Of a stretch of DNA of 64,000 nt, positions 14,764 to 46,700 are shown in pieces (the first letter of the stretch is position 1; each line of letters opens with the position of its first letter). The position numbers and the translations under genes are program-made. The stretch comes from Escherichia phage vB-Eco-KMB43. The stretch lies in the sequence record OR525698.1, one strand, 5' to 3'. A model generated the notes under the pieces. That model saw nothing but the letters and a program-made list of their open reading frames with translations, had not been told where the DNA came from and searched no databases.

Positions 14764-14769
14764 CAACTT

Positions 14770-14981: not shown

Positions 14982-15011
14982 ATTATAGGGGATCACCGAT
15001 CCCCCTGTCAA
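14982..15011 (-). promoter_or_regulatory. PeSL early promoter (TTGACA-GGGGGATCGGTGATCCCC-TATAAT)
   Basis: Consensus -35/-10 with GC stem-loop in spacer. Confidence 0.6.
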
Positions 15012-15022
15012 CAACTTTTTAG

Positions 15023-15538: not shown

Positions 15539-15539
15539 G

Positions 15540-15872
15540 TTATAGTCTCCTGAATGGATCATCACGTAAATCAATATCTTTTAAGAACTCATCCCATGAA
15601 TGGCGGATATTGTTCTTAATTCTCCAGATAAGCGCAGGGATTGAACGCTCTCCCATCTGGAAGTATGGATCATATGATCCGTATGCCCAATATGCTACTA
15701 CAATTCCACAATCAGCGCAATAGTATTCTATTTCACTTGCTGGCGACCAAAGTCCATCAATATGATCGGTGATCTTGCTTTCGATGTTATGGCTATGACA
15801 ATCAGGGCAACGGATGCAATGACCTTGTTTATCGTAATTTGACGTTAGCGAATACTTAAACAATCTCATCAT
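15540..15872 (-). CDS. zinc-ribbon protein (CxxC...CxxC)
   Basis: CIRCPDCHSH ... YYCADCG cysteine pairs; coupled to flanking genes. Confidence 0.5.
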   Translation of the reverse strand: MMRLFKYSLTSNYDKQGHCIRCPDCHSHNIESKITDHIDGLWSPASEIEYYCADCGIVVAYWAYGSYDPYFQMGERSIPALIWRIKNNIRHSWDEFLKDIDLRDDPFRRL

Positions 15873-16585: not shown

Positions 16586-16827
16586 ATACGCCCCTTTAAT
16601 CCAACACAGATTTTAGAAGGTTCTTTGCCGTGCCACATTAAGTAAAGTCCATTAATGCGGCCTTGTTTTGTATATGATTCTTTTCTGATCTTCTTATAGT
16701 GTCGTGCTTCCTCAGCCGATTGTTTAGAATACCAATCATAAAGGAAGAGGCACAAAGGCCAACCATTAGCGGCCTTAATGCAGTTATTAAGAAATTCCTT
16801 ATTGCGTTTAATTAATTTTCTTTTCAC
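16582..16827 (-). CDS. hypothetical protein (81 aa)
   Basis: ORF overlapping neighbours by 4 nt within operon. Confidence 0.5.
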   Translation of the reverse strand: MKRKLIKRNKEFLNNCIKAANGWPLCLFLYDWYSKQSAEEARHYKKIRKESYTKQGRINGLYLMWHGKEPSKICVGLKGRI

Positions 16828-17075
16828 GCTGCCCCCATTGGTTTGATAGTAACAGAATCTAAAAGACCTTTGTTAGCCAGTTCGCGGCAAGTTTTCAGAT
16901 CCGCAACTTCCCAGCCAGCCGCAATCAGGTTATCGATGAGGCTGTTAGCAACTTCTTCGCTCATGAAAGAGCACTGTTTGCCGATGGTGTAGCGTACACG
17001 CTGTAATTTCAGTTTACGGAAGCCTTTAACGTTCAGGTCTTTAGCGATTTTCTTTGCGGTTTCGATGTTAGCCAT
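16824..17075 (-). CDS. hypothetical protein (83 aa), first gene of the PeSL-driven operon
   Basis: AGGAGA RBS, PeSL promoter at 17115-17144. Confidence 0.5.
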   Translation of the reverse strand: MANIETAKKIAKDLNVKGFRKLKLQRVRYTIGKQCSFMSEEVANSLIDNLIAAGWEVADLKTCRELANKGLLDSVTIKPMGAA

Positions 17076-17114
17076 TGTTTGATTCTCCTAAGTGGTATCT
17101 AGTCTTGATGGTTG

Positions 17115-17144
17115 TATTGTAGGGGAGTTATCCTCCCCTGTCAA
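17115..17144 (-). promoter_or_regulatory. PeSL early promoter (stem GGGGAGG/CCTCCCC)
   Basis: TTGACA with GC palindrome; drives operon 17075 to 15023. Confidence 0.5.
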
Positions 17145-17158
17145 CACTTTTTATAAAA

Positions 17159-17326
17159 TTATTTGTTAATTTCCGGTGCGTTGCTAGGATAGTAACCTTC
17201 TTTAACTCCGAGGTATTTCGCAACCATCCCTACAATCTTCTGTGCTACTACAATGTCAAATTTCAGATAATCTTCGCCGTGGGTTTCAATGATATATGCT
17301 TCACATGCTGCTTTAGTCTCGAACAT
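17159..17326 (-). CDS. hypothetical small protein (55 aa), paralog of 20780-20947
   Basis: MFETKAACEAY...NAPEINK; near-identical copy elsewhere; PeSL upstream. Confidence 0.45.
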   Translation of the reverse strand: MFETKAACEAYIIETHGEDYLKFDIVVAQKIVGMVAKYLGVKEGYYPSNAPEINK

Positions 17327-17359
17327 TTTGATTCTCCTATTTCGTTTCGGTATGTGTGT

Positions 17360-17388
17360 ATTATAGGGGATCTCCCGATCCCCGTCAA
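17360..17388 (-). promoter_or_regulatory. PeSL early promoter (TTGACG-GGGATCGGGAGATCCCC-TATAAT)
   Basis: Consensus hexamers with stem-loop spacer. Confidence 0.6.
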
Positions 17389-17404
17389 CAACTTTTTTTT
17401 AAAA

Positions 17405-17686
17405 TTATTCGTGATTAGTTTCGATGTTGTGCATTTTGCACCAGTTCAGCCAATCACCCAGATCCTGATAGTTAATGCTTTTATCTGCTGCCATCGTTTT
17501 TGTCTTGATACCCATATGTGCGTTATGAGTAAGCATTTTTACAGTGAACTCAATTTTATCACCTTTAGCTTTAACATCAACCAGTTTGGTCCACTGGCTA
17601 CCAGCGCCGCGAATGTTCATACCAACGATGTTTCCGATGTATGCTTCTTTGTTTTTCAGGATTTCGGTTGCTTTGATGAATTTCAT
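17405..17686 (-). CDS. hypothetical protein (93 aa)
   Basis: ORF after PeSL promoter with GGAGAATCAA leader. Confidence 0.5.
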   Translation of the reverse strand: MKFIKATEILKNKEAYIGNIVGMNIRGAGSQWTKLVDVKAKGDKIEFTVKMLTHNAHMGIKTKTMAADKSINYQDLGDWLNWCKMHNIETNHE

Positions 17687-17719
17687 TTTTGATTCTCCAG
17701 TTCGTTTCGGTATGTGTGT

Positions 17720-17748
17720 ATTATGCTATTTTCTTACTTTGGTGTCAA
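17720..17748 (-). promoter_or_regulatory. early promoter (TTGACA-17-CATAAT), PeSL-related without clear stem
   Basis: Hexamers at correct spacing plus shared CACACATACCGAAACGAA leader. Confidence 0.5.
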
Positions 17749-17757
17749 CAACTTTTT

Positions 17758-18027
17758 TTAGATATTTTCAGAAATAAATTTTAAAACTTGACGTAAATGT
17801 TTCTCATCTTTGATAGTCGCCGGAAGTTCTTCTTTTACTTCCTGTGCAAGATAGATATTTCCGTTCCAAGTGAAAGATCCGTCTTCGTTTACGCGATAGC
17901 TGAACATCCACTCGCAATCATTTTCGATTTCATATACACACAGAAGAGTGTAATCTTCAAAGCTATTGATTTCAAGGTCGAAGCCGTGACGTTTTGCAAA
18001 GTTGGTAGTGGTTTTAGTCAGTGCCAT
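17758..18027 (-). CDS. hypothetical protein (89 aa)
   Basis: ORF after PeSL promoter. Confidence 0.5.
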   Translation of the reverse strand: MALTKTTTNFAKRHGFDLEINSFEDYTLLCVYEIENDCEWMFSYRVNEDGSFTWNGNIYLAQEVKEELPATIKDEKHLRQVLKFISENI

Positions 18028-18068
18028 TGTTTGATTCTCCTAAGTGGTATCTCGTCTTGATGGGTGTA

Positions 18069-18096
18069 TTATGCTATAGGCGTGATCTGGTGTCAA
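18069..18096 (-). promoter_or_regulatory. early promoter (TTGACA ... CATAAT)
   Basis: Hexamers upstream of 17758-18027 ORF. Confidence 0.5.
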
Positions 18097-18344
18097 TGCT
18101 TTTTTTAATTTTATGCAATAAAAAGACGACACTAAGGTCGGCACATTTTAAAAATTCTTGCCATATATGCAAGCCTCATAATCTAGAGGATGACCGCCAA
18201 TCCTACCCGGCTTAATATTCCAACCGCATCGATATTTGCTGACCATGCTAACAGTTTCGGTTCTTAGAGCATTTTCTTTGCAAATCATACCCCATAAATT
18301 CTTTTCTATAAGGACAGTCCGCTTTGCAAGTTGGCGGTTCTACG

Positions 18345-18536
18345 TCATTTAGCGGGTCGGAAGCAGTTGGCTTTATTATCAATTCTTTGTTTGCAATAAT
18401 CATAAGCACATCCCATTGAAGACAATTTAACATCTTCGCAATAAGTGTTGAATCCGTCAAACACGGTCACTTCGTATTTGACTCCATCAGCGATAGCTTT
18501 TACTTTATACCATCCATGCTTGTATAAAATCTTCAT
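18345..18536 (-). CDS. hypothetical Cys-containing protein (63 aa)
   Basis: GAGGAAAT RBS plus ATG right after PeSL. Confidence 0.45.
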   Translation of the reverse strand: MKILYKHGWYKVKAIADGVKYEVTVFDGFNTYCEDVKLSSMGCAYDYCKQRIDNKANCFRPAK

Positions 18537-18568
18537 CTTTATTTCCTCAATCTCGTTTCGATGGGTGT

Positions 18569-18598
18569 ATTATGCTATAGGCTAGACCAGGTTGTCAA
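18569..18598 (-). promoter_or_regulatory. early promoter (TTGACA ... CATAAT)
   Basis: Hexamers upstream of 18345-18536 ORF. Confidence 0.5.
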
Positions 18599-18621
18599 CA
18601 ACTTTTTTAATTTTTTGGAAA

Positions 18622-18647
18622 TAAAAAAGCCGACGCTAAGGTCGGCT
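18622..18647 (-). terminator. terminator
   Basis: Hairpin AGCCGAC-GCTAAG-GTCGGCT with A-run. Confidence 0.55.
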
Positions 18648-18654
18648 AATAAAA

Positions 18655-18963
18655 TCATTTAGACAAATAATCATTCTGTGCAATCCGGTCGGCGTATGCT
18701 GGTGTTACGTCAATCGCCAACACTTTAACGCGTGCTTTCTTGCGACCTGGGTTTTCTCGTAACCAGTGCTCATGACCGTGCACATTTTTATATTTTGATG
18801 CGGTTTCGAAGGTACGGATCGGACCTGGATAATCTGCGTAAAGGATCTCTAGGTCTTCGGTGATGTAAAAATATACATCATAATTACTGTTCTCTAGTTT
18901 AAGCAGAGAATTGCGAAATTGTGGTAAATTCTCGCGGGTAAATTCAACTACAAGATTTTTCAT
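18655..18963 (-). CDS. HxHW-motif small protein family member
   Basis: Shares H.HW and LAIDVTP motifs with five paralogs; start at ATG 18963 with GAGGA RBS. Confidence 0.5.
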   Translation of the reverse strand: MKNLVVEFTRENLPQFRNSLLKLENSNYDVYFYITEDLEILYADYPGPIRTFETASKYKNVHGHEHWLRENPGRKKARVKVLAIDVTPAYADRIAQNDYLSK

Positions 18964-18988
18964 AGTGATATCCTCATTCAGATAGATT

Positions 18989-19007
18989 AAAAGGGGCTTA
19001 ACGCCCC
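18989..19007 (-). terminator. terminator (GGGGC-TTAAC-GCCCC hairpin family)
   Basis: Same hairpin as the 14461 copy. Confidence 0.55.
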
Positions 19008-19012
19008 GTATA

Positions 19013-19300
19013 TTAAAACAGTCCTTCCTGTACACCGTAGTAGAGTTCGTCACTGATAATTTCATTAATGCGACGGTGTGCATATTCCTGATTTGCGAAG
19101 TTGTCAGCAAGTTCTACTTTAGTTTCGCCGTCATGAGTCCATTTAGTGATAACTTTACCATCTGCAAATTTGAAGTTGAACTCTTTAGCTACTGCATCGC
19201 GTACCAGACGTGCGAACTTGTTGTTACGGATTGCATTATCGGTTTCGTGTGCAGCGTGAGCAAATTTGTTAACTTTCAGAGTGATAGTAATGTATGCCAT
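19013..19300 (-). CDS. hypothetical protein (95 aa), AKEFN-motif pair with 22182-22493
   Basis: ORF after PeSL; shared motif RDAVAKEFNFK. Confidence 0.5.
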   Translation of the reverse strand: MAYITITLKVNKFAHAAHETDNAIRNNKFARLVRDAVAKEFNFKFADGKVITKWTHDGETKVELADNFANQEYAHRRINEIISDELYYGVQEGLF

Positions 19301-19346
19301 AATTTGATTCTCCTAGTTAGAAAGTGTATCTCGTTTCGATGGGTGT

Positions 19347-19375
19347 ATTATGCTATACACCCGATCCATTGTCAA
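19347..19375 (-). promoter_or_regulatory. early promoter (TTGACA-17-CATAAT)
   Basis: Hexamers upstream of 19013-19300 ORF. Confidence 0.5.
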
Positions 19376-19707
19376 CGCCTTTTTATAAAATAATTTTCGA
19401 TATCTTTATGATGTTTTTCTCGTGCTTGGTCTGCCTCGGCTGGCGATACGTTGGAAGCGATAATCTTCACTACTGTTGCACCTTTTTCGGTGTCCGACAC
19501 CCAATGATTATGGAAACCGCTATTATTAAACACTTGATAAGAAAATGATTTAATGCTAGGGAAATTATATGTGTAATAGCGTACCTTTAATTCTGAATCT
19601 ATGTATAGATAGATCACCGCACCTAGATAGACCGTCTCACTCGTTCCATCAACTAACAGTAGAGTATTTCGCAATTCTTCTAAATTGTCTTTTGTAAGAA
19701 AAATCAT
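19372..19707 (-). CDS. HxHW-motif small protein family member
   Basis: FHNHW ... IIASNVSPAEADQAREKHH. Confidence 0.5.
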   Translation of the reverse strand: MIFLTKDNLEELRNTLLLVDGTSETVYLGAVIYLYIDSELKVRYYTYNFPSIKSFSYQVFNNSGFHNHWVSDTEKGATVVKIIASNVSPAEADQAREKHHKDIENYFIKRR

Positions 19708-19721
19708 AGTATAATCCTCAA

Positions 19722-20045
19722 TTAAACCAAATTAACTTTGGTGTTGTGGTGTTTTTCTCGTGCTTCGTCCGCTTCTTCCGGTGTCACGTTACGAGCGACT
19801 ACAATAACACTTGCTGCCTCTCCGTGATGAGAGATCTCTACCCAATGGTTATGATTTGTGAATCCGTGTTTTATTGCGTAAGCGAACGGCTTGGACGTCC
19901 AGTAGTTACTATAATATCGTACATTTAGATCGCTATCAATGTACAAATATGTGCTGTCGTTTACATTGCCACTAACAACAAAAACAAGACAATTGCGAAG
20001 ATCTGGCAATATTTTGTCTGTCAATTTTATAATGTGACTGTTCAT
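19722..20045 (-). CDS. HxHW-motif small protein family member
   Basis: NHNHW ... VVARNVTPEEADEAREKHH; ATG at 20045. Confidence 0.5.
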   Translation of the reverse strand: MNSHIIKLTDKILPDLRNCLVFVVSGNVNDSTYLYIDSDLNVRYYSNYWTSKPFAYAIKHGFTNHNHWVEISHHGEAASVIVVARNVTPEEADEAREKHHNTKVNLV

Positions 20046-20047
20046 AA

Positions 20048-20257
20048 TTAACACCACTCAAGAGTTTTTGAAAACACATCTATCCATTGTTGAGTATATG
20101 CAGTTTCTTTCCACGAGACAATACCAGTAGAATAATGATTCTTGTTTCCAGAAAAGGACGGGCATTTTGATGCATCTTCCATCATCTTTTCGGCGAACTC
20201 TGGTTCGTATACTCGCAAGATCTGTTGATATGCTTTGTAGTCTTTAAATTTGCTCAT
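20048..20257 (-). CDS. hypothetical protein (69 aa)
   Basis: ORF in overlapping operon. Confidence 0.45.
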   Translation of the reverse strand: MSKFKDYKAYQQILRVYEPEFAEKMMEDASKCPSFSGNKNHYSTGIVSWKETAYTQQWIDVFSKTLEWC

Positions 20258-20522
20258 AATCGTTAACTACCTTATCAGCTTCTTTTATTGTTTTTACATC
20301 AACTGCGATAACCCGTAAAGGTTCGTCGTGGTTCCACCAATGATCGTGAATATCAGCTTGTGATTTATCACCAAAGGAATCACGAATATCATTTTTACAT
20401 TTATAGCTAATGTGACCGTCATAGTCAACATAAAGGTAATTATCGAAAATCGGCGTTTTTAAGATCATGCCGAAAAATCTTTCTTTGTGTGTCTTATCCA
20501 GTGTTGCAGTAATTCGCATCAT
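20244..20522 (-). CDS. HxHW-motif small protein family member
   Basis: HDHWW ... IAVDVKTIKEADK. Confidence 0.5.
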   Translation of the reverse strand: MMRITATLDKTHKERFFGMILKTPIFDNYLYVDYDGHISYKCKNDIRDSFGDKSQADIHDHWWNHDEPLRVIAVDVKTIKEADKVVNDYEQI

Positions 20523-20534
20523 AATATATTCCTC

Positions 20535-20714
20535 TTAGAAAGGGATGGTCATTTCTTGAGCTTGTACATTCTCGTTAGGATTAAACTTCATCCAACCGAT
20601 ATTGTCTACCAGCATATGCACATTTTTATCATATCCTACGTGAGTAGTCAATACTAAATGTGCTTTACCTTCAACGATGATTTCCATGTACTTCTGAACT
20701 TCGATAGCTTTCAT
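20535..20714 (-). CDS. hypothetical small protein (59 aa)
   Basis: ATG 20714 behind PeSL and GGAGAATCAA leader. Confidence 0.4.
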   Translation of the reverse strand: MKAIEVQKYMEIIVEGKAHLVLTTHVGYDKNVHMLVDNIGWMKFNPNENVQAQEMTIPF

Positions 20715-20747
20715 TTTTGATTCTCCGTTTGTTGTCTTGATGGGAGT

Positions 20748-20776
20748 ATATTACTACTCCCTTTAATCATTGTCAA
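20748..20776 (-). promoter_or_regulatory. PeSL early promoter (stem GGGAGTA/TACTCCC)
   Basis: TTGACA plus palindrome GGGAGTATATTACTACTCCC. Confidence 0.5.
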
Positions 20777-20779
20777 CTA

Positions 20780-20947
20780 TTATTTGTTAATTTCCGGTGC
20801 GTTGCTCGGATAGTAACCTTCTTTAACACCCAGATATTTTGCGACCATTCCGGTGATCTTCTGTGCTACTACAATGTCAAATTTCAGGTAGTCTTCACCG
20901 TGGTTTGCTACAATGTATGCTTCGCATTCTGCTTTAGTCTGGAACAT
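20780..20947 (-). CDS. hypothetical small protein (55 aa), paralog of 17159-17326
   Basis: MFQTKAECEAY...NAPEINK; PeSL upstream. Confidence 0.45.
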   Translation of the reverse strand: MFQTKAECEAYIVANHGEDYLKFDIVVAQKITGMVAKYLGVKEGYYPSNAPEINK

Positions 20948-20981
20948 TTTTGATTCTCCTATATCTCGTTGGTATGTGTGT

Positions 20982-21010
20982 AGTATAGGGGATCACCGAT
21001 CCCCTGTCAA
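20982..21010 (-). promoter_or_regulatory. PeSL early promoter (TTGACA-GGGGATCGGTGATCCCC-TATACT)
   Basis: Same stem-loop spacer as the 14982 copy. Confidence 0.6.
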
Positions 21011-21017
21011 CAACTTT

Positions 21018-21326
21018 TTATTCTTCATCTTCATCTTTATCTTGATATGCGTACGTCATAAATTTGTCTGCTACTTTGTCCGCGTTTTCAGGTTCTACGT
21101 CTGACGCTAGGACAACAGCTAGTTCTGTTTTGTCGTTTCCATCATACCAATGATTATGAGTGTCGTTTTCTTCGATATAAAACGAATCATTTGGAGTTGT
21201 GCGACAATATACGTCTAAATTCCCATCGATATAAAAGATCCAATCCGAATACAAAATGATTGTTTTAGCAAGATTTTTATTGCCTTCAACGAAAGGTTCG
21301 GCTACAAACAAATTAGTATGTTCCAT
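21018..21326 (-). CDS. HxHW-motif small protein family member
   Basis: THNHW ... VVLASDVEPENADK; start ATG 21326 with GAGGAAAAA RBS. Confidence 0.5.
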   Translation of the reverse strand: MEHTNLFVAEPFVEGNKNLAKTIILYSDWIFYIDGNLDVYCRTTPNDSFYIEENDTHNHWYDGNDKTELAVVLASDVEPENADKVADKFMTYAYQDKDEDEE

Positions 21327-21343
21327 AGTATTTTTCCTCAAAA

Positions 21344-21535
21344 TTATACAGCTTCGTAAACTTCCCAATGTCCAACACCAGCACGCTTAACGAAAAGGTT
21401 TTCTTTTATGTTATTCATAAACGTCTGGATGGATTTAATTCGTTTGGAAGGTTTCCAGTCTTCGTTGGTATTGCGTCGATACATCATAACATTACCAGAC
21501 CGCTTATATTCAGCAACCATTTTAAGACCACACAT
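21344..21535 (-). CDS. hypothetical protein (63 aa)
   Basis: ORF track; promoter-like motif upstream. Confidence 0.4.
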   Translation of the reverse strand: MCGLKMVAEYKRSGNVMMYRRNTNEDWKPSKRIKSIQTFMNNIKENLFVKRAGVGHWEVYEAV

Positions 21536-21580
21536 AATATTATCCTCAATTTGTGGGAGAGTATTACCCTCCCGATTATT

Positions 21581-21612
21581 GTTATACTACATTACGCAAA
21601 ATGGCGTGTCAA
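21581..21612 (-). promoter_or_regulatory. early promoter-like element with nearby GC palindrome
   Basis: TTGACA present; -10 weak; palindrome GGGAG...CTCCC displaced. Confidence 0.3.
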
Positions 21613-21912
21613 TGCTTCTTTTGCTGTTCCGCTAAGATTCTCTATCTCTCCTGGCATAACATCAACCGCCAGAACTTCTACAACATCCTCTGATCCTAAC
21701 CAGTGAGTATGACCTTTGTAGAACTTGATAATCAGACTACCTTCCTCATCCCATTTAACGCTATCGCTAGCCCACCACACATCACCGTCGATAAAGTTGA
21801 TGTAAAGCACACTACGCCACATTGAATTAATTACTTTCAATACTGCGCCTTTCATATCTTCCACGGTGTGGTCTTCCATTTTGAAGACCTCGCCTACCTG
21901 AACTTTTGCCAT
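21592..21912 (-). CDS. HxHW-motif small protein family member
   Basis: GHTHW ... LAVDVMPGE; RBS GAGAGGTGA. Confidence 0.5.
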   Translation of the reverse strand: MAKVQVGEVFKMEDHTVEDMKGAVLKVINSMWRSVLYINFIDGDVWWASDSVKWDEEGSLIIKFYKGHTHWLGSEDVVEVLAVDVMPGEIENLSGTAKEALTRHFA

Positions 21913-21929
21913 TTAGTCACCTCTCTTTA

Positions 21930-22109
21930 TTACATAACAATTACGCCAGCCGTTGAAAGTTGATGTTTCAACTGAGCATTTTCTGCTACTGTCAAATCAA
22001 TGATTTCTTGTGACGCTGCAATCATATAGCCATTGGTGATATTGTTTTGCATCAGTTCAATGGTTTCTTCGTTGTAGCGGATTTTAGCGATGATTTCGTT
22101 GAAGTTCAT
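21930..22109 (-). CDS. hypothetical small protein (59 aa)
   Basis: ATG 22109 behind PeSL; MNFNEIIAKIRY... Confidence 0.4.
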   Translation of the reverse strand: MNFNEIIAKIRYNEETIELMQNNITNGYMIAASQEIIDLTVAENAQLKHQLSTAGVIVM

Positions 22110-22143
22110 AATTGATTCTCCTAGTTCGTTTCGGTATGTGTGT

Positions 22144-22173
22144 ATTATAGGGGAGTTTAACCTCCCCTGTCAA
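22144..22173 (-). promoter_or_regulatory. PeSL early promoter (TTGACA-GGGGAGGTTAAACTCCCC-TATAAT)
   Basis: Consensus hexamers with stem-loop spacer. Confidence 0.6.
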
Positions 22174-22181
22174 CAACTTTT

Positions 22182-22493
22182 TTAAAGTTTTTCCATGATA
22201 ACGGTCATAATTACATCTTCTGCGCGAGCGGTCAGATTATCAGCGTCAGCATGTGGGCGGTTGGTTGTTACAGAGATAACACCGTTGCGCACTGGTTTGA
22301 TATTGATATCAAGATGATCCGCGAAACGTTCGCCAGTTACAGAATGAATTTTGGTGTTAAATTCTTTTGCCAGTGCCTTGCGAACTTCACGAATCAGGAT
22401 AGCGTTTTTCAGTTGGTTCTCCGCGCTCATGGTCTTCTGAGTGTTCATGGTTCCGTCGAAGTCAATCATTGGCAGCGTTACGATGTATTTCAT
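22182..22493 (-). CDS. hypothetical protein (103 aa), AKEFN-motif pair with 19013-19300
   Basis: Shared motif REVRKALAKEFNTK; PeSL upstream. Confidence 0.5.
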   Translation of the reverse strand: MKYIVTLPMIDFDGTMNTQKTMSAENQLKNAILIREVRKALAKEFNTKIHSVTGERFADHLDINIKPVRNGVISVTTNRPHADADNLTARAEDVIMTVIMEKL

Positions 22494-22537
22494 TTTTGAT
22501 TCTCCGTTTAAGAAAGTGTGTTTCGTTTTGATGTGTG

Positions 22538-22567
22538 TAGTATAGGGGATACGTGATCCCCTGTCAA
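22538..22567 (-). promoter_or_regulatory. PeSL early promoter (TTGACA-GGGGATCACGTATCCCC-TATACT)
   Basis: Consensus -35 with stem-loop spacer. Confidence 0.6.
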
Positions 22568-22580
22568 CAACTTTTTTGAA

Positions 22581-22925
22581 TTATTTTTTCATGAGCTTAA
22601 TGGCTTCTTCCATAGCCAGCACATTTCGATAGTTAGGGTATCGTGTTAGATCGTCATACATTCGCTTAAGGGTGGAAACTTCCTCAAACTCTGGGTTTTC
22701 TAGATACAGTTGAACAAATTGTTTCTCTACCATCTCGGCTTTTAGCTTGTCTGCTTGTTCCTGTTCATATGATTTCGTTGGACCCAACACCAACAAAATG
22801 ATAAAGGTGATCAACGGGCTAATGATCAATGATAGGATAACATAACCAATAACGCTACGGTTTAAACGGCTTGCGTACATGCCTACAAGGAAAACAAAAA
22901 GGATATAGATAAACAGAAAGAACAT
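22581..22925 (-). CDS. small membrane protein (two predicted TM segments)
   Basis: Hydrophobic N-terminal half FFLFIYILFVFLVGMY... IISPLITFIILLVLG. Confidence 0.5.
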   Translation of the reverse strand: MFFLFIYILFVFLVGMYASRLNRSVIGYVILSLIISPLITFIILLVLGPTKSYEQEQADKLKAEMVEKQFVQLYLENPEFEEVSTLKRMYDDLTRYPNYRNVLAMEEAIKLMKK

Positions 22926-39660: not shown

Positions 39661-40684
39661 TTACAGATTCAGAAGTGAGTCCAGGTCATCCAGATCAGAA
39701 GCGGAGGAAGTACCGCCACCCAGATCCAGCGATGCCATCAGGTCATCAGCGGAAGAATCTAACGCCGTGCTAGCTGCGTTAATACCAACTACAGTGCTAG
39801 CTGCGGTAATACCAGAATCGAATGCATTCATCTGTGCGTCAAAATCGTCAAGCTGGCTGTTAATCGCTGCCGCAGCACTGGAAGCCGCAGCGCCAGCTAC
39901 CATAGAAACGCCCATAGTTTTCTTAAATTTGGTTTCCAGTTCATCGAACGGTTTAAACTGGCTAGGCGCTACAATCTCACCCAGATCAACCATGTTTTCC
40001 ATCAGATATTTCTGATATGCTTCGTCTTCAATTTTCGGAAGCTGTGATTGCTGCATGAAACGAGAATCATCATAGTTCTGGTGTTTATCAACCTTCTTAG
40101 CTTTCAGGAGGAAGTTAGCACCGGAGAACACACAAGTTACATCTACCGGAACTTCGCCCATGTCGGTATTCACGTTCACCATTGCAACGATCTTATCATA
40201 AATTTTCTGACCGAAGCGGAATTTGAATACCTTACCTTCATTTTCTGGTGCTTGAGGATCTTTCAGTACCAGAATATTTGCGTAGTAAGACGCTTTACGC
40301 TTAATCAGTTGCCATTCGGTTTTATCGGTATTGTACAGGTCTTTTTCGTTAATATATTTGCACACAGGGCAAGAATCAAAATCACCGTGGGTGCTGGAGC
40401 AGTTTTCCCAATACCATTTGCCATTAACTTTGAAGGAATGGTTTACCAGTTTCACAATCGGCAGACCGTCTTCTGTCTTAGACGGCAGGAAGCGAATCAG
40501 GGCTTCACCGTTACCTGCTGCATCAGTCTTAATCTTCCACTCTTTCGGATCTTCTTTGGAGAAACCGTTGCCACCTTTCAGTGTTAATCTTCCACTCTTT
40601 CGGATCTTCTTTGGAGAAACCGTTGCCACCTTTCAGTGAGGCCAGTTGAGCTTGCAGTTTGGAAGAATCTTGGCGTTTAAACAT
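39661..40684 (-). CDS. 32: single-stranded DNA-binding protein gp32, reading frame disrupted by 55 bp tandem duplication
   Basis: ATG at 40684 ([23 protein letters not shown]...) matches T4 gp32 N-terminus; frameshift inside the duplication gives a stop; remainder of gp32 is in the ORF-track frame 39661-40629. Confidence 0.85.
40529..40638 (+). repeat. perfect 55 bp direct tandem duplication (2 copies) inside gene 32 5' region
   Basis: 40529-40583 identical to 40584-40638; 55 is not a multiple of 3, so gene 32 is frameshifted. Confidence 0.95.
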
Positions 40685-40720
40685 ATTCACTATTCCTTCT
40701 TTTGATTAATTTACTAGACT

Positions 40721-40748
40721 ATTATACAGATTTAAATTTACTTGTCAA
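40721..40748 (-). promoter_or_regulatory. sigma70-type early promoter for gene 32 (TTGACA-16-TATAAT)
   Basis: Minus strand reads TTGACAAGTAAATTTAAATCTGTATAAT upstream of gene 32 ATG. Confidence 0.55.
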
Positions 40749-41425
40749 CTATTTGTTTCGGCTTTTAATTGAGATATTTCTTTACACTCTTTAACTACTT
40801 TAACAAATAATGCTCTTGCTTTTGCGGCGTCAATAACAAGTAGTTTCTTGTACGCCTTCATTTTAACACTATAAGTTTGCCAAATCAAGTCTTTGGCTAC
40901 CTTGTCGTGTTCGTCGATTATATTTAGAAAGCTATCTAACAACATAAACGACTCAAACGATATAATCCGATTTTGCAGTAGTTTAAAGATACCGCTTGTT
41001 TCGGTTGTGGGATTGTATGTAATTAGCTCTTTAAGAGTAACCCCGCGTTTCTCGGAGAAGTATACCAGACTTTTAATGTCATCGTCAAATCGTGTTGCTG
41101 CATCGGTTATCTTTCCTATGTATTCCATATAAAAGCCGTATGCGTCAACATCAGTGATTTCACCTACCCATGCATCGGTATTAGCTACCAGATTGCTTAG
41201 GAATAGGAAGTATAATTCTCTTAGATTGTACTTTTCCGCTAATTTTGCGAAATAATACTTATCTCTGCGTTTATTGAATGCGGCATCAGACAACCGCATC
41301 CTCCAATTGTATTTTACGCAATCATAACGCCCGTTCATGTGAGCTTTCATCATGCAATATAACATATACACAGATTTAGCATTAATTCGCATATCTGGAT
41401 CTGGAGGAAGACGGTTTCTGATCAT
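40745..41425 (-). CDS. 59: helicase loader gp59
   Basis: 226 aa, similarity to T4 gp59 (KSVY.LY, HMNG.YD, YNW.MR.SDAA). Confidence 0.8.
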   Translation of the reverse strand: MIRNRLPPDPDMRINAKSVYMLYCMMKAHMNGRYDCVKYNWRMRLSDAAFNKRRDKYYFAKLAEKYNLRELYFLFLSNLVANTDAWVGEITDVDAYGFYMEYIGKITDAATRFDDDIKSLVYFSEKRGVTLKELITYNPTTETSGIFKLLQNRIISFESFMLLDSFLNIIDEHDKVAKDLIWQTYSVKMKAYKKLLVIDAAKARALFVKVVKECKEISQLKAETNS

Positions 41426-41434
41426 ACATACCCC

Positions 41435-41704
41435 TTAAATATCGAGAGTGTTGGTCGGTTCGTCGATCACTCCCTTCCTGAGCGTTCTATTTACTATACA
41501 TTCTTGTGTGATCTTGTCAATAATGGACACCGGAATATATTTCTGATAGTGACCATATTCGATAGAGTTTTCCTCTACAAACTGAGTGGTCGCTTCAAGA
41601 TAAGTCAATCCCTCTTCAACAACCAGTTTTTCGATTGCAAGACCGTTTGCTGTTTTATTCGCGGCTTTTACCGCATGTTCATTAAGCATTGAACACCCGA
41701 TCAT
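41435..41704 (-). CDS. 33: late transcription co-activator gp33
   Basis: 89 aa, motif YLEATT.F.EENSI shared with T4 gp33; position after gene 59. Confidence 0.6.
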   Translation of the reverse strand: MIGCSMLNEHAVKAANKTANGLAIEKLVVEEGLTYLEATTQFVEENSIEYGHYQKYIPVSIIDKITQECIVNRTLRKGVIDEPTNTLDI

Positions 41705-41957
41705 AGAGTTCTACCGCTTCATCGCGTTCTGCTTCGAAGGTTTCGCGCTGTTGCTGGTGATACAGTTTAAACAGAATGCCCCACATTTTACCGTCTACGC
41801 CTAATTCTTCTTTAGCACGCTGTTTGATCTCTTTGATCTTATCGCCGTATGCTTCTTGAATGGTTTTCTGATCGCTGGCTTCTTTAATCAGTTGTGCCAG
41901 GGTATTTCCGTGTACATTTTCGTCAAATACTACTTTTTCTTTTTTCTGTTCAGTCAT
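41682..41957 (-). CDS. dsbA: DsbA-like late transcription dsDNA-binding protein
   Basis: 91 aa basic/acidic protein at T4 dsbA position. Confidence 0.55.
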   Translation of the reverse strand: MTEQKKEKVVFDENVHGNTLAQLIKEASDQKTIQEAYGDKIKEIKQRAKEELGVDGKMWGILFKLYHQQQRETFEAERDEAVELYDRVFNA

Positions 41958-41961
41958 AATA

Positions 41962-42561
41962 TTAACCCTCTTTCGTCATTAATTGAAAACCACGTTCAGC
42001 TTTTGAGATTTCGCTAGGACGTAAATCGTCACCCACATATTCTAGCATCATTTCTCGGATAATGTCAAGTGCTTTTTCATCACCTGATTTTAACTCGAAC
42101 TCAAGTTCATAATGAGCAGTGTCGCCCAATCCTTCGCCTACTTTGCCATAATAGAAAGTGTCTTTGCACATTTCCACTATACCACAACCCATATCTAGAG
42201 TCAATGACTTGCGATATGTCATTACTTGCATTGTTGTAGTGATATAGTCTGAGTTTACCCCTATACTATCAATAAAATGGACAAACTCATCCCAATTTGA
42301 AAATGTAATTTCCTCGCGGTTGAATAGTCCAGATTCATTATCACCCATTTTGACCATGATCTCTGATTTTCGACAGTCAAGTCGTGCATAAATTCCTTTT
42401 TGACGTAGCGCATGATCTTCGGTATCATAATAAAATTCGTGTTTTAGAATGTTATCTCGGTCTAAGAGATTGTATCCGTCATACATTGCCACCCACAAAT
42501 CACAGATGGTTTCGACGCCAATTTGTGAGTGTGCATAGTATTTTAATTCAAGTTCTTTCAT
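41962..42561 (-). CDS. CYTH-like domain protein (triphosphate tunnel metalloenzyme family candidate)
   Basis: N-terminal ExExK (MKELELKYY) and C-terminal YELEFELK acidic strand motifs, ~200 aa. Confidence 0.4.
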   Translation of the reverse strand: MKELELKYYAHSQIGVETICDLWVAMYDGYNLLDRDNILKHEFYYDTEDHALRQKGIYARLDCRKSEIMVKMGDNESGLFNREEITFSNWDEFVHFIDSIGVNSDYITTTMQVMTYRKSLTLDMGCGIVEMCKDTFYYGKVGEGLGDTAHYELEFELKSGDEKALDIIREMMLEYVGDDLRPSEISKAERGFQLMTKEG

Positions 42562-42571
42562 ATGTCAACCC

Positions 42572-43519
42572 TTAGAACTCACCAATTTTCTGCAACATTT
42601 TAACTAACGCATTTGTTACAAAATAGTTATAAATTTTACCGCGTGGTGCTGGTTTAGATTTTTCCCATGACTCCAGAATCTGATTCTGAATATCATCTGG
42701 GATGTAATCGAAATCAATAAGTTCGCGGTTTTCGTCAAATCGTCGTGCTTCTTCCTCTGTCATCAAAGACTTTGGATCTTCGGCATCGAAAATTTGCTCC
42801 AACCATTTGGTTGGAACTGGTTTAGCTCGTTCCCCTTCCAGTCGAGAGATAATGAAATCACTACGACACTTGACAGAAGCCACACCGTCTTTTGCGTCAC
42901 CCTTAACACATTTTACCATAAGGTCTTTGTAAGGGCTACCATATTTGCATTTCTTCCATGCTTTCTGTACTGGCGCCCACTGTTTCACATTTTTGTATTT
43001 GTGCAACTGTGTGTAGTCACCATCGCCGGAGTTGATTAGCACCTGACGACCTTCTACAGAAAACTTTTTAGTTAACACAGCGATTATATCATCTGCTTCA
43101 ACTTTGTCAACCTTAATAACGTGATAAGGCATGTTCTCTTTAAACTCTTCGGTGATCTTATTGATCGCAGCAAAGATCATCTCCCAATCACGCGGATCTG
43201 CGTCTCGTTTTTCCTTACGGTTGCGTTTATAGTAAGGTGCGATATCACGTCGCCAGTAACCTTTGCTTGAATCAAAAGCAAGTACCGTGATTGGGTATTG
43301 ATCTTTGAATTTTGTCATATTATAACGCATGGTGTCAAGAATAAGATGACGGATCATGCCTTCATTAATAGGATCTTCCGGTTTAAAGGTATGCGAGATA
43401 GTAGCAATCATAAGCTGCGACATATCAATCAAATGCACACCTTCCGGCAGTTTATCTTCTGGATCATCAAAGAAATCATTAAGTGTAGCGGTAGTTTTTG
43501 TAAACGGGTTATACGTCAT
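42572..43519 (-). CDS. rnh: RNase H / 5'-3' exonuclease (FEN family)
   Basis: 315 aa, acidic catalytic clusters (DDIIAVL, SGDGDYTQL), T4 rnh position. Confidence 0.85.
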   Translation of the reverse strand: MTYNPFTKTTATLNDFFDDPEDKLPEGVHLIDMSQLMIATISHTFKPEDPINEGMIRHLILDTMRYNMTKFKDQYPITVLAFDSSKGYWRRDIAPYYKRNRKEKRDADPRDWEMIFAAINKITEEFKENMPYHVIKVDKVEADDIIAVLTKKFSVEGRQVLINSGDGDYTQLHKYKNVKQWAPVQKAWKKCKYGSPYKDLMVKCVKGDAKDGVASVKCRSDFIISRLEGERAKPVPTKWLEQIFDAEDPKSLMTEEEARRFDENRELIDFDYIPDDIQNQILESWEKSKPAPRGKIYNYFVTNALVKMLQKIGEF

Positions 43520-43521
43520 AA

Positions 43522-43707
43522 TTAAGTTCTCTCCACTCTCACAACAACAGACTCATCAAACGAGCTAGATACTTCACGATCATACCCGTATTTCTCCATA
43601 ACTCGCAGAATTGCATTGTTTAGTTCTGCGCGAAAATAATTGTAATCCTTATCAGGGATTCGGTCAACTACCCATTTTGCACCGTCTGACAAATCAACTT
43701 TAACCAT
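43522..43707 (-). CDS. hypothetical protein (61 aa)
   Basis: ORF between rnh and gene 34. Confidence 0.4.
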   Translation of the reverse strand: MVKVDLSDGAKWVVDRIPDKDYNYFRAELNNAILRVMEKYGYDREVSSSFDESVVVRVERT

Positions 43708-43745
43708 AATATATCATCCTCTTTTGTTTCTATCAAGCCTTATTT

Positions 43746-43753
43746 TATAAATA
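43746..43753 (+). promoter_or_regulatory. T4-type late promoter TATAAATA (gene 34)
   Basis: Exact TATAAATA ~29 nt upstream of gene 34 start. Confidence 0.6.
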
Positions 43754-43781
43754 TGAACATACTATAAAAGGAGACCCAATA

Positions 43782-46700
43782 ATGGCAGATTTTTCTCAAC
43801 ATTTCAAGGCCACATTTGGCTTTGACGCTGGTAATGAAAAGGTCGTCAATGTAGCATACGCAGATAAAAACACATCAACGGATGCGGTCAACGTTGAATT
43901 TTTCAATTACCATAATGGTATTACTCAGTATGACACAACTCGCGGTTATGATCAATACGGAACTACAATCTATCAAAACCGTCCGTATTATGCAAAAGAA
44001 GATATCGCAAAACCAGCAGGTGACTTTGACCCGACTAAATGGCAAGCACTGCGCACGGACCCACGTTGGGATTATGTTGCAGCAACTTCCGGCGATACTC
44101 CTTTAAAGTCCGGTGATTATATCGCAGCGGACTGTCAGTTTGCAAACTTGACATTCTCAATGCCTACTAATCCGGCAGAGGGCGACACTATAACAGTAAA
44201 AGATATCGGTGGCAAGTGCGGTGTTAATGAGTTATCGTTCCTTGCGGCTGGTCATGAGTTCTATCATAACGGTGTGGTAAACAACCGCAAATGGTATTGT
44301 ACTACCCCTTATGCAATGAACTACTTCATTTTTGTTCGCAATCGCTGGCACGTTTACCAGACGGGAACGGAGCCGCGCGGGGTATATGCACAGCCATCTA
44401 TTGATCCGATTCAGATGCAAAACGGTGATCAGGTATTCCGTCGTAGTTCTTTAGGTAACATTGTTTTGATGCTTCCTAAGTTTGCTAATAACGGTGATAT
44501 GATCCAGACTACCGATCTTGACGGATTGACTGCAACCAACCATGTTACAGTAAAAGTACATGAAGGTGCGCAAGAACAATCGATCGGTACTTTCGGGGTA
44601 AAAGAAATTGTTGGTAAGCGTAGCGGTCATGGTGTATTCATCTTTGACAAACCGGAAAACTTATGGCGTTTGTGGGATGGCGATCAGTCTGTTCGCTTGA
44701 ATCCTATCATTAGTGATACTCGCTTATCCCCTAATAGCTATGTTGCAGTATTTGGTGATCGTGATGTTACCTTGACTTTACCGACCAATGTCGAGCCGGG
44801 TGATCGTATCCAAGTTTCTATGCAGTATATGCACGGAAACCAGACTTGCCGAATCGTTACCTCAGAAGAGGATACAAAAATCCTTATGCAGAAAAACATG
44901 GTTCAGTTTCCTAAGCGTAGCGAGTACCCATTCAATGGGACCGATACATGGACGGGAGTGTCTGAATTGTCTTTCAACGCTGCAAATGATTATGTACCTT
45001 ATCTGGAGTTCTCTTATTCAGAAGGTGATGATGGTAAGAAATACTGGTTGGTTGCACATGCTCACCCGATTGTAGAACGAGTAGATCCTACACGTAAAGA
45101 TCGTGTTGGTGTAATTGCACTGGCTACCCAGGATGAAACAAACAAAAACCATGAAGATAATCCTAGCGACGAAGTTGCGGTGACCCCAAAGGTTCTGGCT
45201 AATAAAACAGCCAACGAAACTCGACGCGGTATTGCTCGCATTGCAACTCAAGCGGAAACGCATCAAGATACTGGTTCCAGCTTCCTGGATGATGTTATCG
45301 TTACACCTAAAAAGTTAAATAACTGTGTTGCTACCGAAGACCGTCGTGGTGTGGTGGAAATTGCAACTCAACATGAAACAAACGAAGGTTTAGACGATAC
45401 CCGCGCAATCACTCCTAAGAAGTTAGAAGAACGTCGCGCGTCCGAGGATCTTGCTGGTATCGCTGAAATTGTTCAGGTAGGCGGTAATGCTGCCGCTCTA
45501 AGGGGTGAAGCTGGTACGGGGATCTATAACATCAACGACCACGCTAAAATAGTTACTCCGCAAAACATCAACGAAGTTAAGGCGACCGAAACTTCCCGTG
45601 GTGTTGGCTATCTGGCAACTGATGCGGAAGTGCAAGGGGCTACAGAATCAACCCCGCAAGATGCTTTACTAATCACGACTCGCACGCTAACGAAACGTAC
45701 TGCTACCGAATCGCGTACTGGTATCGCTGAAATTGCAACGCAGGAAGAAACAAACTTAGGTCAAAGTGATAACCATATCATCACGCCTAAAAAGCTGCAT
45801 ACTCGCCGCGCAACGGAAACTTTACACGGTTTAGCAGAAATTGCAACTCAACCGGAATTTGACGCAGGTCGTGACGATTCTCGCATTTCTACCCCATTGA
45901 AGATTAAAACCTTCTTTGAGAATGCACAGCGTTTGAAAGTAGATCCGACTCAGGGGCTTAACCTTACTGGTGATTTGTGGCAAGGTATCATGATCAGCGG
46001 TCTGGATGCAACCGAAGACACAAAAGGTGTCGCTAAAGTTGCTACTACTCAGCTTACTGACGCTGGTCAAGATGATACTACAATCATCACGCCTAAAAAG
46101 CTGCAAGGCAAAAAGGCCACCGAAGGTAAAGAAGGTATTATCCGAGTTGGTACTCAAGCCGAAACCGTGGCTGGTACACTGGCTAATGTAGCAATTTCTC
46201 CGAAGAACTTCAAATATGTTGTTCAGACAGAGGATACATGGAAAGCAACCGAAGCGCGTCGTGGATTCTTGAAAGTTGCTACTCAGGAAAACTGTTTTGT
46301 TGGTGATAATCTGCAAGGTTCTACTCAAGAACTAGGAAACTACCAGCATGACGGAATTGCTGTTACCCCGAAAGGATTAAACTACGCACTTGCTAATTTC
46401 TTACCTAAGATGGCAACCGCTCAGAATAGTTTGAAATTAGGTAACGTAGAGGCCGCTAAATGGGCGCGTAGAGACATTGACCAGACCATAGAGAGCAATT
46501 ACACGTTTAATAAAAACGTTAACGTGAAGGGCGATTTAGAGTGCTTAAAATCTGGTTCCTTTGAAACTCTGTCTGTGACTAAGAACTCGACCGATGATCC
46601 GAGTAATGGTCATCTGGTGTTGGGTGAGCGTGGAGTTGACGGTCACACCGGAATTACTCTGCATGGCACAACCGCATCGGAAGGCATGGAAAACTCATGG

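What the first reader, a model, noticed from the sequence alone, without database searches (positions are those of the whole stretch)
41962..42561. CYTH-like protein inserted between dsbA and rnh
T4 has dsbA directly followed by rnh. Here a 199 aa ORF sits between them, with an N-terminal ExExK signature (MKELELKYY) and a second acidic strand motif (YELEFELK), the pattern typical of CYTH triphosphate tunnel enzymes. Phage-encoded CYTH enzymes could hydrolyse or make nucleotide second messengers.
Basis: inference. Interest (0 to 1): 0.45.

Follow-up and report, generated by a model that had tools for sequence, protein, structure and literature searches.

The report
Phage CYTH triphosphate-tunnel enzyme gene
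A 199-residue gene between rnh and dsbA in this RB49-like coliphage encodes an apparently intact CYTH "triphosphate tunnel" enzyme, probably a phosphohydrolase rather than a cyclase, but the assignment has been in the literature since 2006 and the substrate is still unknown.

Summary
ORF 41962..42561 (- strand, 199 aa) lies between rnh and dsbA. In T4 those two genes are 8 nt apart. The window is a Krischvirus (RB49/Phi1-like), and all 58 Krischvirus records carry the gene in this slot.

The CYTH reading holds:
- Pfam CYTH scores 27.8 bits, above the 23.2-bit cut-off.
- The profile-profile comparison with cellular CYTH domains gives 99.9% probability.
- The AlphaFold model has pLDDT 95.6, and its best solved-structure match is the tunnel domain of E. 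coli YgiF inorganic triphosphatase (TM 0.79).
- Metal-binding and catalytic residues are kept: E3/E5/K7, R60, K71, R82/E84, R117, E154/E156, K187/R190.

All three published hallmarks of class IV adenylate cyclases are absent.

This is not new. RB49ORF244c was listed as a CYTH hit in 2006, and the RB49 GenBank record notes similarity to ygiF.

Two smaller points came out of the work. The phage clade has a remodelled tunnel (Y58-x-R60-x-D62 instead of small-x-R-x-R, plus extra aromatic residues). Codons 11-150 form an anciently diverged cassette exchanged by recombination between near-identical flanks. No substrate or role has been shown.

The parts
41962..42561 (-). CYTH/TTM protein gene (199 aa), the orthologue of RB49ORF244c and phi1p245
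   Evidence: ORF. Pfam PF01928 at 27.8 bits, above the 23.2 cut-off. PHROG 14893, E 4e-132. AF2 pLDDT 95.6. Foldseek top hit YgiF 5a60, TMq 0.79.
42541..42555 (-). Codons 3-7, the ExExK motif (E3, E5, K7) on strand beta1; metal and triphosphate binding
   Evidence: Invariant in all 69 aligned phage and cellular CYTH sequences.
42376..42390 (-). Codons 58-62, Y-A-R-L-D. R60 is the catalytic Arg (YgiF Arg56). D62 replaces the second Arg of RxR. Y58 sits at the position of ThTPase Trp53.
   Evidence: hhalign and MAFFT alignments. Column counts: D/N in 11/11 phage sequences against R in 56/58 cellular ones; Y in 9/11 phage sequences against A/S/G in 54/58 cellular ones. Roles of the residues come from PMC4641920 and PMC8233210.
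42088..42111 (-). Codons 151-158, YELEFELK. The acidic strand with E152/E154/E156, which are the ExE ligands for metals 1 and 2.
   Evidence: E154 and E156 are invariant in 69 sequences. The role of ExE comes from PMC8233210.
41977..42006 (-). Codons 186-195, SKAERGFQLM. [quoted passage not shown]
   Evidence: Helix 187-195 in the model. K187 is invariant and R190 nearly so. It aligns to SKAARGY of YgiF.
42114..42531 (-). Anciently diverged, recombining core of the gene (about codons 11-150) between near-identical flanks
   Evidence: 45-70% DNA identity to phage Skers against 95-100% in the flanks. dS is 0.44 to saturated here against 0.07-0.16 in the flanks. It is the only equal-length (419 nt) in-gene stretch that blastn could not align in about 42 kb of collinear sequence.
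42569..42573 (-). AAGGG Shine-Dalgarno-like element 7 nt upstream of the ATG, overlapping the rnh stop codon
   Evidence: Read directly from the sequence.
42572..43519 (-). rnh (T4-type RNase H, 5'-3' exonuclease), the upstream neighbour
   Evidence: Pfam RNaseH_C E 4e-39 and 5_3_exonuc_N E 8e-18.
41682..41957 (-). dsbA (late-transcription dsDNA-binding protein), the downstream neighbour. Its start codon is 4 nt after the CYTH stop codon.
   Evidence: Pfam Phage_DsbA E 5e-22. Sequence read.
41435..41704 (-). Gene 33 (late-transcription co-activator), next gene downstream
   Evidence: Pfam Trans_coact E 2e-26.

Best explanation
The ORF encodes a stand-alone, catalytically competent triphosphate tunnel metalloenzyme of the CYTH superfamily. 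Its closest relative is the tunnel domain of bacterial YgiF-type inorganic triphosphatases, but it lacks their CHAD domain. It is a conserved, lineage-specific accessory gene of Krischvirus-like T4-type phages. It is co-oriented and tightly packed with rnh, dsbA, 33 and 59.

Inferred mechanism, by homology with YgiF, AtTTM3 and ThTPase: the substrate's triphosphate binds in the basic half of the beta-barrel (K7, R60, K71, R82, R117, K187, R190). Two Mg2+/Mn2+ ions are held by E3/E5 and E152/E154/E156. Metal 2 activates a water molecule, R60 polarises the beta-gamma bridge, and the terminal phosphate is hydrolysed.

The tunnel lining differs from that of cellular relatives: D62 replaces an Arg, and Y58, F136, Y9, Y138 and K40 replace small or aliphatic residues. 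I therefore infer that the preferred substrate may not be plain PPPi. It may be a triphosphate carrying an organic group, such as a nucleotide or thiamine triphosphate. The likely role is to remove such a compound from the infected cell. The fold and residue conservation are shown here. The chemistry, the substrate and the biological role are inferred.
For: - Pfam CYTH scores above the gathering threshold.
- The phage-family profile matches a profile of 58 cellular CYTH domains with 99.9% probability and E 2e-35.
- The AF2 model has pLDDT 95.6 and pTM 0.89, with a beta-barrel and a C-terminal helix.
- The top 28 Foldseek PDB hits are all CYTH/TTM-family structures. YgiF 5a60 is first, with E 9e-13, TMq 0.79 and rmsd 3.4.
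- Twelve catalytic or binding residues are invariant across 69 sequences.
- Conserved residues alternate along the strands, as expected for tunnel-facing positions.
- dN/dS is below 1 even in the diverged core.
- Homologues at 32-50% identity (P0043-P0045) keep the slot immediately upstream of dsbA-33, and P0043's contig also has rnh immediately upstream.
- Residue roles and the cyclase-versus-hydrolase criteria come from PMC4641920 and PMC8233210.
- The clade-specific tunnel substitutions are counted.
Against: - There are no biochemical data for any phage member. Literature searches found none.
- The placement of R60 opposite the catalytic Arg depends on the alignment. Pairwise HMMER alignments to YgiF put Y58 there instead. 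In that case the catalytic Arg would be missing and hydrolysis doubtful.
- D62 puts a negative charge where relatives bind phosphate.
- I could not inspect the model's coordinates, so the tunnel geometry is inferred from the strand pattern only.
- One isolate, G2494, has the gene split into two ORFs, so the gene may be dispensable.
- E. coli already has abundant PPPase activity (PMC3440374), which makes a simple PPPi-clearing role hard to justify.
Confidence: 0.72

Rival explanations
1. It is a class IV (CyaB-like) adenylate or nucleotide cyclase that makes cAMP or another cyclic nucleotide in the infected cell, as some GenBank records annotate it.
For: Two phage records call the orthologue 'adenylate cyclase'. 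The CYTH superfamily does include CyaB. Several PDB neighbours carry 'putative adenylate cyclase' names.
Against: All three class IV cyclase hallmarks of Vogt et al. 2021 fail. There is no HF motif four residues before ExExK, because only M-K precede it. The first Arg of RxR is kept as R60 rather than replaced by a small residue. The second Glu of ExE is kept as E156 rather than Ala. True class IV cyclase structures (2fjt, 3n0y/3n10) rank only 35-42 in the fold search, with TMq 0.47-0.48. Many 'adenylate cyclase' labels in this family are historical misannotations (PMC3440374).
Confidence: 0.05
2. It is a counter-defence or host-takeover enzyme. It would destroy a triphosphate-bearing immune signal or a nucleotide that the host uses against the phage. 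Alternatively, it may itself be a target recognised by a defence system. Either would explain why divergent alleles are kept and exchanged.
For: The core of the gene is an anciently diverged cassette exchanged by recombination between 95-100% identical flanks. In about 42 kb of collinear sequence, the only other diverged homologous stretch is in the tail-fibre genes. The tunnel lining is remodelled in a clade-specific way. The gene lies among co-oriented genes that are early or middle genes in T4.
Against: There is no PADLOC hit. No literature links CYTH to phage defence or counter-defence. dN/dS in the core is about 0.2-0.3, which indicates purifying rather than positive selection. Mosaic accessory genes are common in T4-like phages without any immune role. 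No candidate substrate is identified.
Confidence: 0.12
3. It is an RNA 5'-triphosphatase, like the Cet1 and viral capping TTMs. It would act on 5'-ppp ends of transcripts or of Okazaki primers, which would fit its position next to rnh.
For: TTM-type RNA triphosphatases of giant viruses appear among the weaker structural matches (rank 50). The adjacent gene processes RNA primers.
Against: The closest relatives by sequence and structure are small-molecule triphosphatases (YgiF, AtTTM3, SaTTM, ThTPase), not Cet1-like enzymes. The conserved C-terminal plug helix closes one end of the tunnel in that group (PMC4641920). Gene adjacency in T4-like genomes is weak evidence for a shared function.
Confidence: 0.06
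4. It is a catalytically dead binding protein (a sponge) for a triphosphate or polyphosphate ligand.
For: If the pairwise HMMER alignment is right, Tyr58 replaces the catalytic Arg. In YgiF and AtTTM3, mutating that Arg strongly reduces activity.
Against: The profile-profile alignment and the multiple alignment both put R60 at the catalytic Arg position. The ungapped spacing from the YxD motif (14 residues) agrees with this. All metal ligands are invariant, which is not expected for a non-enzyme.
Confidence: 0.05

Closest known systems
E. coli YgiF inorganic triphosphatase, TTM domain (PDB 5a60/5a61)
   Same: It is the best sequence match in the PDB (A2 profile E 1e-50; phage-only profile E 3e-3) and the best structural match (TMq 0.79, 23% identity). 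It shares ExExK, the catalytic Arg, Lys, RxE, ExExE and the SKAxRG plug helix.
   Different: The phage protein has no CHAD domain (199 aa against about 433 aa). The second Arg of RxR is Asp. Aromatic Y58, F136, Y9 and Y138, and K40, replace small or aliphatic tunnel residues. It is phage-encoded, and its activity is untested.
RB49ORF244c / phi1p245 / PHROG 14893 (Krischvirus hypothetical protein)
   Same: It is the same gene in the same slot, at 84-96% amino-acid identity. PHROG E 4e-132. It was listed as a Pfam CYTH hit in Nolan et al. 2006 and noted as 'similar to ygiF' in GenBank AY343333.
   Different: Nothing essential. The window carries the Phi1-type allele of the variable core rather than the RB49-type allele.
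Mammalian 25-kDa thiamine triphosphatase
   Same: CYTH fold (TMq about 0.6). An aromatic residue sits two positions before the catalytic Arg: W53 in ThTPase and Y58 here. This is the W/YxRxR signature of PMC8233210.
   Different: The second Arg of the signature is Asp here. Overall similarity is much lower than to YgiF. Whether the phage protein hydrolyses ThTP has not been tested.
Class IV adenylate cyclase (CyaB, YpAC-IV)
   Same: Same superfamily, with a shared ExExK motif.
   Different: The phage protein lacks the HF motif, keeps the first Arg and keeps the second Glu of ExE. Structural similarity is low (TMq 0.47-0.48).

Membership tests
CYTH / triphosphate tunnel metalloenzyme superfamily (Pfam PF01928) | Profile score above Pfam's curated gathering threshold | tested here: met
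   27.8 bits against 23.2, E 2.6e-6. hhalign probability 99.9% against cellular CYTH domains.
CYTH / triphosphate tunnel metalloenzyme superfamily (Pfam PF01928) | N-terminal ExExK motif on strand beta1 | tested here: met
   E3-L-E5-L-K7. Invariant in 69 sequences.
CYTH / triphosphate tunnel metalloenzyme superfamily (Pfam PF01928) | Antiparallel beta-barrel tunnel fold with a C-terminal plug helix | tested here: met
   Predicted, not solved. AF2 pLDDT 95.6, nine strands, helix 187-195. The top Foldseek PDB hits are all TTM structures.
CYTH / triphosphate tunnel metalloenzyme superfamily (Pfam PF01928) | Acidic ExE motif on the penultimate strand, which binds metals 1 and 2 | tested here: met
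   E152, E154 and E156. E154 and E156 are invariant.
CYTH / triphosphate tunnel metalloenzyme superfamily (Pfam PF01928) | Divalent-metal-dependent action on a triphosphate substrate | not testable with these tools
   Requires an enzyme assay.
YgiF-type inorganic triphosphatase (CYTH-CHAD) | Catalytic Arg (YgiF Arg56) in the RxR strand | tested here: met
   R60 aligns to it in hhalign and MAFFT. Caveat: pairwise HMMER alignments place Y58 there.
YgiF-type inorganic triphosphatase (CYTH-CHAD) | Second Arg of RxR (YgiF Arg58) | tested here: not met
   D62. D/N in 11/11 phage-clade sequences against R in 56/58 cellular ones.
YgiF-type inorganic triphosphatase (CYTH-CHAD) | C-terminal CHAD domain | tested here: not met
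   The protein ends at residue 199, just after the plug helix. dsbA starts 4 nt later.
YgiF-type inorganic triphosphatase (CYTH-CHAD) | Specific hydrolysis of PPPi | not testable with these tools
   Requires an enzyme assay.
Class IV adenylate cyclase (CyaB-like) | HF motif four residues before ExExK (HFxxxxExExK) | tested here: not met
   Only M1-K2 precede E3. Criterion from PMC8233210.
Class IV adenylate cyclase (CyaB-like) | First Arg of RxR replaced by a small residue | tested here: not met
   R60 is retained.
Class IV adenylate cyclase (CyaB-like) | Second Glu of ExE replaced by Ala | tested here: not met
   E156 is retained and invariant.
Thiamine triphosphatase (25-kDa ThTPase) | W/YxRxR motif | tested here: inconclusive
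   Y58-x-R60-x-D62. The aromatic residue and the first Arg are present, and the second Arg is absent.
Known anti-phage defence proteins (PADLOC) | Match to any defence-system model | tested here: not met
   No hit at E <= 1.

The most novel reading that the evidence does not exclude
The remodelled tunnel and the anciently diverged, recombining core would mark this enzyme as part of the phage-host arms race. It would hydrolyse a triphosphate-bearing nucleotide or immune signal, or the PPPi and nucleotide products of host dNTP-depleting defences. Different alleles would be maintained because host factors recognise or inhibit the protein.
Probability: 0.1. Interest if true: 0.6.

Novelty: already known. 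Interest (0 to 1): 0.2.

Why it matters
As it stands, this confirms a database-level annotation and has little consequence. No phage CYTH enzyme has been characterised. A substrate for this one would show which triphosphate compound matters during T4-type infection, and it would correct the conflicting GenBank labels ('adenylate cyclase' and 'inorganic triphosphatase'). The clade-specific Y-x-R-x-D signature and the recombining core give concrete mutants and allele swaps to test.

Tried and rejected
- **NCBIfam:** only a meaningless 11.7-bit hit.
- **PADLOC:** no hit.
- **Single-sequence PDB search:** only marginal hits, an immunity protein TriTu at E 0.11 and YgiF at E 0.17. The TriTu hit was rejected as chance, because profiles and the fold search point only to CYTH structures.
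- **Rfam over 40500-44000:** nothing found.
- **T4 late-promoter motif TATAAATA:** no excess in the window. The only nearby copy (43746-43753, + strand) serves gene 34.
- **Sigma-70-like sites:** several lie on the - strand, including a perfect TTGACA-16-TATAAT inside rnh and TTGACA-18-TAGAAT inside the conserved 3' end of the CYTH gene. These are consensus matches only, and I make no claim from them.
- **Special constraint on the conserved C-terminal 49 codons (for example an embedded promoter):** I considered this. Their dS (0.035-0.11) is about the same as in the flanking genes (0.07-0.18), so they simply belong to the flanking, recently shared block.
- **Viral-contig scan with the family alignment:** only three close Krischvirus contigs.
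- **Closest cellular relative, P0046:** it lies in an archaeal contig next to a PRK-family kinase and says nothing about the phage gene.
- **Literature:** four searches found no functional study of a phage CYTH protein.
- **Model coordinates:** I could not read them, so residue positions in the tunnel are inferred from strand periodicity and alignments.

Full report
**Observation**

The window contains an ATG-started ORF of 199 codons at 41962..42561 on the - strand.

Pfam identifies the neighbours. RNase H (rnh) lies upstream at 42572..43519 (-). DsbA lies downstream at 41682..41957 (-), followed by gp33 and gp59. gp32 lies further downstream, by comparison with the annotated Phi1, RB49 and Skers records.

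The genes are tightly packed. The rnh stop codon overlaps an AAGGG ribosome-binding element 7 nt before the ORF's ATG, and the dsbA start codon follows the ORF's stop codon after 4 nt.

In T4, dsbA and rnh are 8 nt apart with nothing between them. The statement that this ORF is an insertion relative to T4 is therefore correct.

**Origin of the window**

The region is 99.8% identical to Krischvirus LF73P4 and to phage FL04. It is 90-97% identical to the other 56 Krischvirus records, including RB49, Phi1 and JSE.

tblastn finds the protein in exactly those 58 records and in no other phage in the collection. Most records call it hypothetical. Two call it 'adenylate cyclase' and two call it 'inorganic triphosphatase'.

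**Is it a CYTH protein?**

Yes. The evidence is:
- Pfam CYTH (PF01928) scores 27.8 bits, above the curated 23.2-bit threshold.
- An exhaustive HMMER search of 1.8 billion representatives found only three at E < 1e-30 (two of them, P0037 and P0043, were already in the query alignment) and six at E < 1e-10. About 200 distant stand-alone CYTH and CYTH-CHAD proteins followed.
- A profile of the phage family matches a profile of 58 of those cellular domains with 99.9% probability and E 2e-35.
- An AlphaFold2 model built on a 69-sequence alignment has mean pLDDT 95.6 and pTM 0.89. It shows a beta-barrel followed by a C-terminal helix.
- The top 28 Foldseek hits against the PDB are all CYTH/TTM-family structures. 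The first is E. coli YgiF bound to tripolyphosphate and Mg2+ (5a60; E 9e-13, TM 0.79, rmsd 3.4 A, 23% identity).
- Across the 69 sequences, E3, E5, K7, Y44, D46, K71, R82, E84, R117, E154, E156 and K187 are invariant. R60, E130, D134, S186, R190 and G191 are nearly invariant.
- Within the phage family, conserved residues alternate along the strands, as expected for side chains that face the tunnel.

**Hydrolase or cyclase?**

Vogt et al. 2021 (PMC8233210) give three sequence hallmarks of true class IV adenylate cyclases:
- an HF motif four residues before ExExK;
- a small residue in place of the first Arg of RxR;
- Ala in place of the second Glu of ExE.

None applies here. Only M-K precede E3, R60 is kept, and E156 is kept. 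True class IV cyclase structures rank only 35-42 in the fold search, with TM 0.47-0.48. The 'adenylate cyclase' labels in GenBank are most likely inherited misannotations, a problem already described for this family (PMC3440374).

Martinez et al. 2015 (PMC4641920) show that YgiF Arg56 is needed for catalysis but the neighbouring Arg is not. They also show that two metals, bound by the ExExK and ExE glutamates, carry out hydrolysis. With R60, all the glutamates and the plug-helix Lys and Arg present, the most likely activity is two-metal hydrolysis of a terminal phosphate.

**An alignment caveat**

Pairwise HMMER alignments to YgiF put Y58, not R60, opposite Arg56. MAFFT and hhalign put R60 there. 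I favour R60 for two reasons. The spacing from the invariant YxD motif is 14 residues in both the phage and the cellular sequences, and the ungapped match to the nearest cellular relative, P0046, supports it. I could not inspect the model's coordinates, so this point remains open.

**What differs from cellular relatives**

The protein has no CHAD domain. Several tunnel-facing positions are specific to the phage clade:

| Position | Phage clade (11 sequences) | Cellular CYTH (58 sequences) |
|---|---|---|
| 62 (second Arg of RxR) | D/N in 11 | R in 56 |
| 58 (two before the catalytic Arg) | Y in 9 | A/S/G in 54 |
| 136 | F in 10 | G in 44 |
| 40 | K in 11 | L/Q/M in 46 |
| 9 | Y in 11 | variable |
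| 138 | Y in 11 | mostly I/V |

Position 58 corresponds to Trp53 of thiamine triphosphatase, which stacks on the thiazole ring of the substrate. These changes suggest a substrate other than plain PPPi, possibly one with an aromatic or cationic group. This is inference only.

**Genomic behaviour**

Three more distant metagenomic homologues (P0043, P0044 and P0045, at 50%, 40% and 32% identity) also lie immediately upstream of dsbA and gene 33. P0043's contig also has rnh immediately upstream. The P0044 and P0045 contigs are too short to show that side. The gene is therefore an old, stable resident of this slot in a T4-like lineage, not a recent insertion.

Within Krischvirus, the gene is a mosaic hot spot.
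- rnh, dsbA, gene 33, the first 30 nt of the ORF and its last 150 nt are 95-100% identical among the window, RB49 and Skers.
- Codons 11-150 fall to 45-70% identity with Skers and 72-95% with RB49.
- Synonymous divergence in the core is 0.44 (window against RB49) to saturated (window against Skers). In the flanks it is 0.07-0.16. dN/dS in the core is about 0.2-0.3.

This pattern indicates old alleles moved by homologous recombination, under continued purifying selection. It does not indicate local fast evolution.

In a blastn comparison of the window with 50 kb of Skers, collinear blocks are 94-98% identical. The 419-nt CYTH core is the only equal-length, in-gene segment that fails to align. 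The other breaks are insertions or deletions, or lie in the distal tail-fibre genes.

One isolate, G2494, has the gene split into two ORFs. This is either a sequencing error or a sign that the gene is dispensable in the laboratory.

**Prior knowledge**

Nolan et al. 2006 (PMC1524935) list 'RB49ORF244c, CYTH domain, 0.0026' in their table of Pfam hits. The RB49 GenBank entry notes 'similar to ... ygiF'. A 2021 survey mentions CYTH triphosphatases scattered among jumbo phages and suggests they degrade unmodified nucleotides (PMC7824862). The BFVD fold search shows other, distant phage CYTH proteins. I found no functional study of any phage CYTH enzyme.

**Verdict**

The observation and the fold assignment are confirmed, and both were already known.

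The best-supported mechanism is a metal-dependent triphosphate phosphohydrolase (confidence about 0.7). A cyclase is unlikely (about 0.05). The physiological substrate and role are unknown.

A plain PPPi-clearing role looks weak because E. coli already has ample PPPase activity. The remodelled tunnel and the recombining core leave room for a host-interaction role, but nothing tested here supports it directly: there is no PADLOC hit, and selection on the core is purifying.

Interest is low. The added value is a cleaner annotation and specific testable mutants.

Noticed in passing
window 40523-40632 (gene 32, - strand): A 55-nt tandem duplication (two copies, 98% identical) lies near the 5' end of the gp32 ssDNA-binding protein gene. 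Because 55 is not a multiple of 3, the normal ATG ORF stops after 53 codons (40690..40529), and the rest of gp32 (39661..40629) is in another frame. The duplication is absent from Phi1, RB49, Skers and all 58 Krischvirus records, including the 99.7%-identical LF73P4. It could be an assembly artefact, a mutant or a mixed population.
   Followed up: partly
window 42114-42531: The core of the CYTH gene is an anciently diverged allele cassette between near-identical flanks (dS 0.44 to saturated against 0.07-0.16). It is the only equal-length, in-gene segment that blastn could not align in about 42 kb compared with phage Skers.
   Followed up: yes
window 43083-43110 (- strand, inside rnh) and 42039-42068 (- strand, inside the 3' end of the CYTH gene): A perfect sigma-70 consensus (TTGACA-16-TATAAT with an upstream TG) lies inside rnh, and an 11/12 match with TG lies inside the conserved 3' end of the CYTH ORF. 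The region has 20 promoter-like sites against 7.9 +/- 3.1 in shuffles, mostly on the - strand. These could be internal early promoters for CYTH and dsbA-33. This was not tested.
   Followed up: no
window 43522-43707 (- strand): A 61-aa ORF lies upstream of rnh (PHROG 3594, unknown function). It is conserved in Krischvirus and absent from the T4 rnh-34 intergenic region.
   Followed up: no
L013 (phage vB_EcoM_G2494, MK327935) 601-1196: In this isolate the CYTH gene is annotated as two ORFs (66 and 130 aa), which implies a frameshift or a sequencing error. A 130-aa fragment also appears as P0041 and in BFVD.
   Followed up: partly
L002 / L014 (phage Skers) between genes 59 and 32; window 40689-40756: Skers carries an HNH homing endonuclease between genes 59 and 32 that the window lacks. 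T4 has the GIY-YIG endonuclease SegG in the same place.
   Followed up: no
window 14700-22600: Many short (45-110 nt), 73-92% identical repeats are shared between intergenic parts of the window and the small-ORF region of Skers. They look like repeated promoter or intergenic modules between small early genes.
   Followed up: no
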